64,000 nucleotides of DNA. Origin: Escherichia coli. GTDB taxonomy: Bacteria > Pseudomonadota > Gammaproteobacteria > Enterobacterales > Enterobacteriaceae. Shown piece by piece: positions 30,801 to 33,800 of this stretch (position 1 is the first letter of the stretch; each line of letters starts with the position of its first letter). The stretch lies in assembly GCF_017348835.2 (NCBI RefSeq), contig NZ_CP071375.1; one strand, 5' to 3'. Made by a program: the position numbers.

Positions 30801-33800
30801 CGACAAGGCGATATCCTAAAAATTAGCTAGCAGGCAACTTTGATGGCATAGATAATGTTTTTAGTAAAAAAGAGTTGACTGAATATAATACAGCCTCTTC
30901 CTACATAAGAAGGAATGTGCTCACAAAAAAAAACCATTAGTCTGCTTCCTGTTCTTACAATAATCAGTATTATGTATTTTATTTATATAGCAAAATATGC
31001 TTGTTACACCTGTCATAATTAGGCATGGTAAAATTATTGACTGAACCCTGGGGGAGAAAGATGCACAGTGATTATTATAATATGGTTTTTGGTGAAAAAT
31101 TGGCCAATATTTTATATGAAGCTAACTCTCAATTTTTTTACGAGAGAAATGTCATAGAAGAGGCAGTCAACGCTTTATTCTGTGAGCGTGAAATAATAAA
31201 CAACAAGAACATAATAAAGAAGCTGATGTTCTTTTTGTCAGATGTTAATCACACCAAGAAAGATGTTGTTCAGAGCGCACTTAATATTATCATTGACATT
31301 ACATCAGGTGATATTTGAGATTTTACATAAAAGATAATCTCTCAAGGAGTCTTATCTGAAAACGAAATATATAGTCCCTCTCGTTTTGTAATATCGATTG
31401 GCTTTGTTGAATCGGTTACGTACCCCGGAGCCGGTCATATTTTCAGGTAATACACACGCTTTCAGACATTTCGGCTTTCGTCATTTTGGTATCATGGGCA
31501 TAGCTTCTGCTACCTGACCATCATAATCACGCAGCTTCAGTGAAGCAGTGACCACCTGTTTAACCCGGTGTATCGTTATGATCTTATCCAGCAATTGAAC
31601 CGCCCCGGGTTTCCTGGAGAGTGTTTTATCTGTGAACTCAGGCTGCCAGATCATCGTTTCCGATGGAAGCATAATAAGCTTTTTCTGCTTCTGCCGGTGG
31701 AATATGGCCCTGCCTTTCCAGCAATCGTCGATTGTTATACCAGTCCACCCACGTGAGTGTGGTCAGCTCATCATACTGACACGTGCATTACCCCTACCGC
31801 GATAATGCAACCGTACAATATAGGGCGTTTCCTAAACGCAGCCCTCATCACTCCAATCCAACAAGACACAGCATTTTTGATCACGAAGAAAGACAAATAA
31901 TTTCCGTAAATGTTTCCGTTGTTACAAATAACAACAGTGTTTTATATTTCTTTGGCCTCAGGCCCGCGCATGTTGCCATTCGATGTCATTTTCCTGACTC
32001 GTTTCTTCTTTATGGTGTAGTGTGATCTTCACTTTATGGATGCTAACAATATGAAAAGAAAAATTATTCCCGTGCTAATCGGTTGTACGCTCTCTTTCTC
32101 TGCCCTGGCGGCACAACCTACGGCTGAGCGCTATGTCGTCAGTTTTCCAGAAGGCACGCACGTGAACTATGCCGGCGCATTTGCCAGTGCATTCCCGAAC
32201 GGCCTTCCGGTTGGGATAGGTTCTGGCCTGCTGTTCACCGGTAAACAGGGCGATGCCCTGACATTCGCAACTATTACCGATCGCGGTCCGAACGCGGATT
32301 CACCGAAAGAGGGGAAAAACGAAACTAAAATTTTCGTTACGCCAGATTTCGCGCCGCTGCTGATGACGATTCGTGTACAAAACGGCAAAGCGGAGGCCAT
32401 CGATCCCCGTCCTCTGCATGACGATAAAGGCGCGATCAACGGTCTGCCGCTGGCAAGCGACGTGATTGGCTCCACCAATGAAGTGGCCTTCAGCGACACG
32501 TTACATAGACTGAAGGGGGATAATCGCGGGCTGGATACGGAAGGGATCACTCCGGATGGTAAAGGAGGTTAGTTCCAGTTTGCTCACTCGTGTTAAGAAG
32601 GTATTGATCACCTGAACATCCGAATTGGTGAGCCTATTTAATAGAGCGGGTGGTATACCTTTACTAACAATCGCTTTGCGGTGACTTTCGTAGTTTTTAT
32701 TACTCATTGTTGATCCTCAAAAATCATTGTATGGCGGCATTGATCGTTTCCAGCAACCTTTACTTACTCACTTCGAACTGCATCCTCGTAGACTGTTCCA
32801 CTACAATAATCGAAAAGGCGCGGATGTCCATTCAGGTATCCCGCTAATACGTATAGCAATAACAATGGCTTATGCGGCGCGCGCTGTTCACCCTTGTGCC
32901 AGATTTTTATATTGGCAATTGCCTGCTGTAGCGATTTACTGGAAGCTATTGATATCCCTGGCAGTGAAATAATTGCGATCATGCTCGCAAATTTTCTGCT
33001 GTTCAAGCCTGCAAGTGAAGATATATTACCTTGATCTCATTTGTTTTTTTGCTGCCTGTTCTGAGAACGTATAAGGACATTCTCCATGAATAAACTCCCT
33101 GATCATCTTCCGCGGCGGTATATCATCGAAGCTATCCATTTATGGGATGCGGGAGAAACTCATCAGTTCCAGCCTGCGCGGTTGTATGAGATTGAATATC
33201 ATGGCCGACGTTACCCCTCGAAGGCGATTGCTGGCATCGCAGCGACATTGATGACGGGGACGCAATTTACCCCTGCGGATTTCACCGGCGGAATAAAATC
33301 TAAATGTGTCAAGCTACTCATAGAGCAGGGATTTCATATTCATCTGGATAAAGCCGCTGCGGCTCCCATAGCCGACGTTCTGTTCCCGGATGAGTTGCCG
33401 TCGCAGGAGACATACCTTGAAGGTGCGGCGATAAAGGTGACAGTAAACCGCTATGAACGCGATAAAAAGGCCCGAGATAAAGCGGTCGAACATCATGGAT
33501 GCCAGTGCAACGTATGCGGTGTTGATCTGGTGAAGATCTATGGTGATATCGCTGAAGGCTTTATCCATGTGCATCACCTGGTGCCGCTGTCAGCCATTAA
33601 AGAGGATTACCAGCTGGATCCAGTTAATGATTTGCTGCCTGTGTACCCTAATTGCCATGCGATGTTGCACCGACGCAAACCACCGTTTACGCCGGAGCAG
33701 TTAAAAGCGCTGATGGATGCGAATAAATCAAATTAATGAACGCTCACCTTTCGCGCCAAAACTGCAAAATTGCTTCTACAAACTTGTCAGAAATAATCCC

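What the first reader, a model, noticed from the sequence alone, without database searches (positions are those of the whole stretch)
32764..33736. McrA-like HNH endonuclease with an unknown N-terminal domain at the island edge next to nanS
The 216-aa protein has an unambiguous C-terminal HNH zinc-finger nuclease signature, fused to an N-terminal region of about 110 aa (...RRYIIEAIHLWDAGETHQFQPARLYEIEYHGRRYPSKAIAGIAATL...) that I cannot assign to any domain. The architecture (unknown sensor domain plus HNH nuclease, no methyltransferase nearby) fits a modification-dependent, type IV-like restriction or anti-phage nuclease. A divergent 80-aa ORF (32764..33006) lies about 80 bp upstream and may be a partner or a remnant.
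Basis: partly seen in the sequence, partly recalled or inferred. Interest (0 to 1): 0.55.

Follow-up and report, generated by a model that had tools for sequence, protein, structure and literature searches.

The report
Orphaned ScoMcrA-type head–HNH nuclease gene
The 216-aa gene encodes a small nuclease that joins the "head" domain of the restriction enzyme ScoMcrA to a McrA-type HNH cutter, and here it is the surviving, probably damaged half of a two-gene restriction cassette whose partner, a nuclease that cuts sulfur-modified (phosphorothioated) DNA, has been deleted to 50 codons.

Summary

The 80-aa divergent ORF is not a partner gene. Its core (32800..32949, minus strand) is the first 50 codons of an EcoWI-like SBD-HNH phosphorothioate-dependent restriction endonuclease. 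The start codon is changed from ATG to ATA and the rest of the gene is deleted.

E. coli GF43 and EC12, Citrobacter and Klebsiella carry the intact divergent pair. Among 5426 complete E. coli genomes, about 326 keep both genes, about 912 only head-HNH and about 1381 only SBD-HNH.

Relatives sit in defence islands, so a type IV-like defence role for the family is plausible but untested. The head domain matches no known modified-base reader. The verdict is an ordinary, partly decayed restriction locus of modest interest.

The parts
33086..33736 (+). CDS of the 216-aa head-HNH nuclease (identical to RefSeq WP_001037966.1, 'HNH endonuclease'). An AAGGA ribosome-binding site lies 8 nt upstream.
33098..33349 (+). 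ScoMcrA-type head domain (aa 5-88), with predicted order H-beta-beta-H-H-beta. Conserved residues include H26, F28, Y34, Y43, P44, K46, G50, A52, F66, G68, G69, C74, L78 and F83.
33350..33421 (+). Low-confidence, variable-length linker (aa 89-112).
   Evidence: pLDDT 49-59 for aa 91-120; gapped region of alignment A1
33422..33733 (+). McrA-type HNH (beta-beta-alpha-Me) module (aa 113-216). It includes the conserved E-G-A...N-R-Y-E-R-D helix, C141-x-x-C144, H161-x-H163-H164 and P-N189-C190-H191...H195.
   Evidence: The same module is fused to many other N-terminal domains in most of the 80 loci kept from the genome scan.
33644..33646 (+). Codon 187, TAC (Tyr), where the family has TGC (Cys). 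This is the third ligand of the CxxC...CxxC zinc site.
   Evidence: 48 of 48 aligned homologues have Cys. 139 of 142 proteins with the xPNCH motif have Cys. E. coli GF43, EC12 and SW07091 have TGC.
32800..32949 (-). Pseudogene remnant: codons 1-50 of an EcoWI-like SBD-HNH phosphorothioate-dependent restriction endonuclease. The first codon is ATA instead of ATG, and the deletion breakpoint is at about 32805/32806.
   Evidence: RefSeq annotates the same 150 bp as an incomplete gene. The intact 290-aa orthologue scores 437 bits on NF045808 against a cut-off of 180.
32764..33006 (-). The 80-aa mechanical ORF of the finding. It is the remnant plus unrelated read-through on both sides, not a gene.
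32973..32990 (.). Conserved 18-bp palindrome TTGCGATCATGCTCGCAA in the divergent intergenic region, 23 nt upstream of the SBD-HNH start codon. It is a relic cis-element of the lost gene.
   Evidence: Invariant in otherwise diverged intergenic regions. Present in 27 of 27 fetched loci with an SBD-HNH gene or remnant and in none of the head-HNH-only loci.
33744..34724 (-). nanS (sialate O-acetylesterase), intact at 326 aa. It marks the core-genome edge of the leuX-associated island.

Best explanation
The locus is a partly decayed type IV restriction cassette.

Ancestral state (shown). Two divergently transcribed genes lay next to nanS. One was an EcoWI-like SBD-HNH enzyme that cuts phosphorothioated DNA. 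The other was a 216-aa head-HNH protein made of the ScoMcrA N-terminal head domain, a flexible linker and a McrA-type HNH zinc-finger nuclease.

State in this window (shown). The SBD-HNH gene has been deleted to its first 50 codons and has lost its ATG. The head-HNH gene is still an intact ORF but carries C187Y at a zinc-ligand position that is otherwise conserved.

Inferred mechanism for the family. Like EcoKMcrA, ScoMcrA and EcoWI, the protein probably acts as an HNH-mediated dimer. The basic, conserved head domain would dock it on DNA and the HNH domain would nick or cut with a divalent metal. It would serve as an autonomous, or loosely SBD-HNH-associated, barrier to foreign DNA.

Inferred for this allele. 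Loss of a structural zinc ligand probably destabilises the beta-beta-alpha-Me finger, so this copy is likely weakened or inactive. It would then be a surviving fragment rather than a working defence gene.
For: Domain identity:
- PF26345 (ScoMcrA_N) plus PF01844 on the 99%-identical cluster representative and on homologues.
- N-domain profile against 5zmm_A residues 4-93, E = 7.7e-9.
- HNH module matched to EcoKMcrA and ScoMcrA.

Remnant.

Intact pair at the same nanS locus in E. coli GF43 and EC12, and the reciprocal state with head-HNH cut to 35 codons. Population counts are 1238 genomes with head-HNH, 1707 with SBD-HNH and 326 with both, out of 5426.

The same divergent pair sits in different genomic settings in Citrobacter farmeri, two Citrobacter species, Klebsiella aerogenes and Klebsiella sp.. 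On an ICE the two genes are 4 kb apart.

Defence-island neighbours.

C187Y is unique to this allele. SW07091 has the truncated SBD-HNH but still Cys187, which suggests the substitution arose after the deletion.

EcoWI alone restricts PT-modified plasmids and forms a dimer, so the SBD-HNH partner is self-sufficient.
Against: - No head-HNH protein has been assayed, so nuclease activity, dimerisation and any modification dependence are inferences from homology.
- The head domain has no known function, was flexibly attached in the ScoMcrA crystal and was not the domain that recognises phosphorothioated DNA.
- The ORF is intact with a good ribosome-binding site. E. coli alleles differ at more synonymous than non-synonymous codons, for example 24:10, 20:6 and 6:4. 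The Y187-type allele is carried by about 660 complete genomes. A still-useful protein is therefore not excluded.
- Tyr can in principle be tolerated near a metal site. The effect of C187Y was not measured.
Confidence: 0.7

Rival explanations
1. One reading: the gene encodes an active, autonomous, modification-dependent (type IV) restriction nuclease. The N-terminal domain is the reader of a modified base or backbone, and Y187 is tolerated.
For:
- The ORF is intact and no methyltransferase is nearby.
- About half of the sampled homologue contexts have head-HNH alone in a defence island, which implies autonomy.
- A nuclease with no specificity domain would be toxic, so the head domain may provide discrimination.
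Against: - The head domain has no fold similarity to SRA, EVE, PUA, YTH, NEco or DpnI-type wH readers.
- In many proteins it co-occurs with a bona fide reader such as EVE, SRA, DUF3427 or MrcB_N, which suggests an accessory rather than a reading role.
- A zinc ligand is lost in this allele.
Confidence: 0.2
2. Head-HNH is an obligate second subunit of the phosphorothioate-dependent enzyme, in effect a 'split ScoMcrA' with head and HNH on one chain and SBD and HNH on the other. On this view the window copy is a functionless orphan.
For: - The divergent pair moves as a unit between genera and genomic sites and stays on the same ICE when separated.
- Together the two genes supply three of ScoMcrA's four domains (head, SBD and HNH, without SRA).
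- The damaging C187Y is seen only in a lineage that had already lost SBD-HNH.
Against: - EcoWI-type SBD-HNH works alone in vivo and in vitro as a homodimer.
- In E. coli each gene is far more often found alone than paired, about 912 and 1381 genomes against 326.
- 9 of 16 sampled head-HNH contexts have no SBD gene within 6-10 kb.
- The conserved palindrome tracks SBD-HNH only.
- The two HNH domains belong to different Pfam families, PF01844 and PF13391.
Confidence: 0.08
3. It is a selfish or mobile-element HNH, such as a homing or phage-packaging endonuclease, rather than a defence gene.
For: HNH domains are common in phages; PHROG HNH families match the C-terminal part. The gene lies at an island edge among IS remnants.
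Against: No record in the collection of 50,697 phage genomes matches the head domain; only the HNH part matches, at 30-44% identity. There is no intron, intein or terminase context. The gene is stably placed next to nanS in about 1200 genomes.
Confidence: 0.02

Closest known systems
ScoMcrA (Streptomyces coelicolor SCO4631; PDB 5zmm), a type IV phosphorothioate- and 5mC/5hmC-dependent HNH endonuclease
   Different: ScoMcrA is 561 aa and has SBD and SRA domains between the head and the HNH. The window protein has only a linker of about 25 aa, so it lacks both known reader domains.
EcoWI / SprMcrA-type SBD-HNH enzymes (NCBIfam NF045808)
   Same: The divergent neighbour gene, a 50-codon remnant here, belongs to this family. 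The intact E. coli orthologue scores 437 bits against a cut-off of 180. EcoWI restricts GpsAAC/GpsTTC-modified DNA.
   Different: The 216-aa protein itself has no SBD; its NF045808 match is only 17 bits. Whether the nanS-locus gene is EcoWI itself could not be established, because no EcoWI sequence was available.
EcoKMcrA (PDB 6ghc)
   Same: The HNH module is of the same type, including the preceding Y-x-R-D helix and the CxxC...CxxC finger. It is the best Foldseek hit for the full-length model. EcoKMcrA dimerises through its HNH domains (abstract listed).
   Different: The N-terminal NEco 5mC/5hmC-reading domain of EcoKMcrA is unrelated to the head domain.
[quoted passage not shown]
   Same: There is a parallel set of architectures: a small DNA-binding domain plus HNH of about 220-280 aa, versions with an added PUA/EVE domain, and NTPase fusions.

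Membership tests
ScoMcrA_N head-domain family (Pfam PF26345) | Sequence match to the family or the ScoMcrA head domain over its full length | tested here: met
   PF26345 is precomputed on the 99%-identical representative P0001 and on about 115 of the 120 listed homologues. The N-domain profile hits 5zmm_A aa 4-93 at E = 7.7e-9. The Pfam copy behind profile_search reported no PF26345 match.
ScoMcrA_N head-domain family (Pfam PF26345) | Same fold as the solved head domain | tested here: met
HNH / beta-beta-alpha-Me nucleases, McrA type (PF01844) | Catalytic His...Asn...His motif | tested here: met
   H163-H164, N189 and H195 are present and invariant in 49 sequences. Pfam HNH E = 0.006; PHROG HNH E = 3e-7.
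HNH / beta-beta-alpha-Me nucleases, McrA type (PF01844) | Complete CxxC...CxxC structural zinc site | tested here: not met
   C141, C144 and C190 are present, but position 187 is Tyr. Cys is found in 48 of 48 aligned homologues, in 139 of 142 motif-bearing proteins and in three other E. coli alleles.
Type IV (modification-dependent) restriction endonucleases | A recognised modified-DNA reader domain (SRA, EVE/PUA, YTH, SBD, NEco, DpnI-type wH, MrcB_N) | tested here: not met
Type IV (modification-dependent) restriction endonucleases | No cognate methyltransferase; accessory gene in a defence or mobile context | tested here: met
   No methyltransferase is annotated in the identical F2_81 region. 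The gene is full-length in 23% of complete E. coli genomes. Homologues have defence-island neighbours.
Type IV (modification-dependent) restriction endonucleases | Cleavage that depends on a DNA modification | not testable with these tools
   This needs enzyme assays. No published assay of a head-HNH protein was found.
SBD-HNH phosphorothioate-dependent endonucleases (NF045808), applied to the 80-aa ORF | Full-length match above the curated cut-off (SBD plus HNH_2) | tested here: not met
   Only profile positions 2-45 of 284 match, at 60 bits against a cut-off of 180. tblastn finds codons 1-50 only. It is therefore a remnant, not a gene.
DpnI/HhiV4I-type winged-helix 6mA sensors (wH-HNH) | Canonical winged-helix fold related to the DpnI wH domain | tested here: not met

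The most novel reading that the evidence does not exclude
The ScoMcrA head domain may be an unrecognised DNA-targeting or DNA-modification-sensing module that can direct an HNH nuclease on its own. It is found in about 3,700 protein clusters at 50% identity, fused to HNH, EVE, SRA, McrB-type AAA+, STAND and NOV_C modules. In enterobacteria the minimal head-HNH enzyme might cooperate with the adjacent SBD-HNH enzyme as a two-nuclease phosphorothioate-sensing cassette.
Probability: 0.15. Interest if true: 0.6.

Novelty: new member of a known kind. Interest (0 to 1): 0.28.

Why it matters
For this window it matters little. The finding resolves into an annotated HNH gene plus a pseudogene remnant at a variable, decaying restriction locus, and the copy present carries a probable loss-of-function substitution.

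The wider point is modest but real. The head domain of ScoMcrA was described in 2018 as having 'unknown function'. It turns out to be a very common N-terminal module of restriction-like proteins, and the minimal head-HNH form offers the simplest system in which to find out what that domain does. The natural E. coli polymorphism would make such tests easy to design, because it provides genomes with the pair, with either gene alone, and with C187 or Y187 alleles.

Tried and rejected
- PADLOC gave only weak mREase_IV hits (E of about 1e-4) and NCBIfam gave nothing above cut-off.
- Phage origin was rejected because no head-domain hit exists in the collection of 50,697 phage records.
- The genome-wide scan seeded on HNH peptides mostly returned proteins that share only the HNH module. 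Only 7 of the 80 loci had the head domain, so it gave a small sample for the co-occurrence question. My SBD HMM was built from two sequences and may miss distant SBDs.
- The distant Klebsiella plasmid copies proved to be a broken gene and were not pursued.
- I could not obtain the EcoWI sequence to test whether the nanS-locus SBD-HNH is EcoWI itself.
- Synonymous and non-synonymous codon counts among E. coli alleles are too few to show relaxed selection on the Y187 lineage.
- The promoter scan found no convincing sigma-70 site for the head-HNH gene, which is uninformative.
- No heteromer structure prediction was possible with the available tools.

Full report
**Observation.** The window contains a 216-aa ORF at 33086..33736 (+) and an 80-aa ORF at 32764..33006 (-), 79 bp apart and divergent. 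nanS lies convergent just beyond the stop codon. It is intact here at 326 aa, 33744..34724. The locus is the right-hand edge of a leuX-associated island. tRNA-Leu(CAA) lies at 16313..16397. It is followed by an AbiJ-NTD4 gene, IS30, the fec operon, IS1 and IS3 remnants, an AriR-family gene and a truncated phytase-like esterase. The 216-aa product is identical to RefSeq WP_001037966.1, 'HNH endonuclease'.

**The C-terminal domain.** It is a McrA-type HNH.
- Pfam HNH matches weakly (E = 0.006, aa 141-197). PHROG HNH families match (E = 3e-7).
- The EcoKMcrA HNH domain aligns over aa 123-198, including the Y-x-R-D helix. Foldseek places EcoKMcrA and ScoMcrA first for the AF2 model.
- In an alignment of 49 family members, C141, C144, H161, H163, H164, N189, C190, H191 and H195 are invariant.
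- Position 187 is the exception. It is the third cysteine of the CxxC...CxxC zinc site and is Cys in the 48 other sequences, but Tyr (TAC, 33644..33646) in the window protein.
- Of 142 retrieved proteins with the xPNCH motif, 139 have Cys. The only two with Tyr are the E. coli clusters of this allele.
- E. coli GF43, EC12 and SW07091 have TGC at this codon.
- A 91-bp probe around the codon is at least 99% identical in 664 complete E. coli genomes, so the Y187-type allele is common. This count is an estimate from an identity band.

**The N-terminal domain.** It is not unassignable.
- Homologues, including a 99%-identical cluster representative, carry Pfam PF26345, named ScoMcrA_N in the gene tables.
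- A profile of the N-terminal 92 residues matches only ScoMcrA in the PDB (5zmm_A residues 4-93, E = 7.7e-9).
[quoted passage not shown] Phosphorothioate recognition resides in the separate SBD, residues 91-260 (PMC6224610).

**How widespread the head domain is.** It is found in 3738 clusters at 50% identity with E <= 1e-3. Among 61 longer proteins that carry it, Pfam finds HNH (23), HNH_2 (15), EVE (13), McrB-type AAA_5 (7), nSTAND3 (6), NOV_C (6), DUF3427 (2), SAD_SRA (2), and single cases of AspBHI_N, MrcB_N and Mrr_N. AFDB50 hits tell the same story. The head domain is thus a recurrent module of restriction-like proteins. It is often present together with a bona fide modified-base reader, which argues that it is an accessory or docking module rather than the primary reader.

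**The 80-aa ORF.**
- Only residues 20-69 (32800..32949, minus strand) have homology. They match NF045808, 'phosphorothioated DNA-binding restriction endonuclease', at positions 2-45 of 284 (E = 1.7e-16, 60 bits against a cut-off of 180).
- They are 76% identical to codons 1-50 of the Citrobacter farmeri SBD-HNH protein. The first codon is ATA where the intact genes have ATG.
- Alignment with E. coli GF43 places the deletion breakpoint at about 32805/32806.
- RefSeq annotates the same 150 bp as an incomplete gene in every genome examined.

**The ancestral locus.**
- E. coli GF43 and EC12 carry, at the same place next to nanS, an intact divergent pair. It consists of a 290-aa SBD-HNH (437 bits on NF045808) and a 216-aa head-HNH with Cys187. 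In GF43, McrBC genes lie alongside.
- An ETEC strain shows the reciprocal state, with SBD-HNH intact and head-HNH cut to its last 35 codons.
- Across 5426 complete E. coli genomes, head-HNH is at least 80% present in 1238. The part of SBD-HNH missing from the window is present in 1707. A probe spanning both genes is present in 326. That gives roughly 912 genomes with head-HNH only and 1381 with SBD-HNH only. These are estimates from megablast coverage.
- SW07091 has the truncated SBD-HNH but Cys187, which suggests that C187Y arose after the partner was lost.

**Beyond E. coli.** I sampled 16 distinct head-HNH contexts.
- Six have the same divergent pair in unrelated genomic settings. These are the E. 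coli nanS locus, C. farmeri (beside a T6SS), Citrobacter sp. Cu233 and FP75, Klebsiella aerogenes (beside Mrr_N-HNH and type I R-M) and Klebsiella sp. R445 (beside Wadjet).
- In one, an ICE in E. coli and relatives, the two genes are 4 kb apart, near AbiE or DarTG genes.
- Nine have no SBD gene within 6-10 kb. They are Raoultella, Escherichia sp. ESNIH1, UBA7338, Edaphobacter, Pseudescherichia, Pantoea stewartii and ananatis, a Kiwa and type I R-M island, and a Sulfurimonadaceae contig whose neighbouring HNH_2 protein has a different N-terminus.
- The association is therefore well above chance but confined to the clade with at least 57% identity to the window protein, and it is not obligatory.
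- EcoWI, an E. coli SBD-HNH, restricts PT-modified plasmids on its own and is a homodimer (PMC7461809). That paper's neighbourhood analysis looked only at dnd genes and does not mention the head-HNH neighbour.

**Interpretation.** Three things are shown: the domain identities, the pseudogene remnant and the polymorphic decay of a two-gene cassette. Two things are inferred. First, the family is a DNA-targeting HNH nuclease used in defence, with the conserved, basic head domain docking it on DNA and the McrA-type HNH dimerising and cutting. Second, C187Y weakens or inactivates this copy, because structural zinc ligands of beta-beta-alpha-Me fingers are generally required for folding. That last point is established knowledge of HNH enzymes recalled from memory and was not tested here. 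Against inactivation, the ORF is intact and alleles differ at more synonymous than non-synonymous codons. Its 'unknown sensor domain' is a known domain of unknown function, and the supposed partner ORF is a relic.

**Rivals.**
- An active autonomous type IV enzyme with the head domain as reader remains possible (about 0.2).
- An obligate two-subunit 'split ScoMcrA' is unlikely, given EcoWI's autonomy and the frequent solitary occurrence of both genes (about 0.08).
- A phage or homing HNH is effectively excluded.

**Novelty and score.** No paper in the searchable library deals with head-HNH proteins or with WP_001037966. Even so, the gene is annotated, its domains are in Pfam and its relatives are standard modular type IV nucleases. 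I rate it a new, uncharacterised and here degraded member of a known kind, with interest about 0.28.

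Noticed in passing
window 32973..32990: An 18-bp perfect-armed palindrome TTGCGAT(C/G)ATGCTCGCAA lies 23-31 nt upstream of the start codon of every SBD-HNH gene or remnant fetched (27 of 27 loci across E. coli, Citrobacter, Klebsiella and an ICE). It is absent from head-HNH-only loci. It is invariant while the flanking intergenic DNA has diverged. It is probably an operator or a 5'-UTR hairpin of the SBD-HNH gene. The TGCGA-N6-TCGCA layout recalls CRP-family sites, but that is from memory and untested.
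   Followed up: partly
window 33736..34724: nanS is an intact 326-codon ORF here, with 7 substitutions relative to GF43. RefSeq nevertheless annotates the identical sequence in F2_81 and PE164 as a 345-bp 'incomplete' sialate O-acetylesterase plus a 30-aa hypothetical protein that starts at the HNH stop codon. This is probably an annotation artefact.
   Followed up: partly
E. coli loci L102-L105 and the counts: The nanS-adjacent cassette shows reciprocal decay in the species. About 326 complete genomes have both genes, about 912 only head-HNH and about 1381 only SBD-HNH. Small remnants of the lost gene are retained, including in a K-12 derivative (HST04).
   Followed up: yes
window 32036..32572: A 178-aa ORF is the N-terminal part of a 452-aa 'esterase-like activity of phytase' protein that is intact in strain PSS-07 (L003). 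A second deletion therefore lies immediately left of the SBD-HNH remnant.
   Followed up: partly
window 16313..18430: Directly after tRNA-Leu (leuX) lie an AbiJ-NTD4-domain gene (16931..17755) and a 208-aa hypothetical gene, which may form an abortive-infection-type pair. Strain F2_81, otherwise 100% identical over window 10000-34900, has about 11 kb of extra DNA in this region, and its annotation shows a P4-like satellite prophage just after leuX, which the window lacks.
   Followed up: no
L094 (Klebsiella aerogenes) 4260..6636: Three HNH nucleases with different N-terminal modules sit side by side next to a type I R-M system: Mrr_N-HNH, SBD-HNH_2 and head-HNH. This is a compact array of modular type IV-like enzymes.
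   Followed up: no
proteins P0121-P0266; AFDB50 hits: The ScoMcrA head domain occurs in about 3,700 clusters at 50% identity, with very diverse partners: EVE, SRA, DUF3427, McrB-type AAA_5, nSTAND3, NOV_C/DUF3883, a ZorC EH domain, and proteins up to 1567 aa. Its biochemical role is undescribed.
   Followed up: partly
L113 (Klebsiella pneumoniae IncR plasmid) 5001..5556: A distant head-HNH relative (37% identity) matches on 12 or more of the listed enterobacterial plasmid records (Klebsiella, Serratia). In the one record examined the match is split into two pieces and only a 91-aa HNH fragment is annotated.
   Followed up: partly
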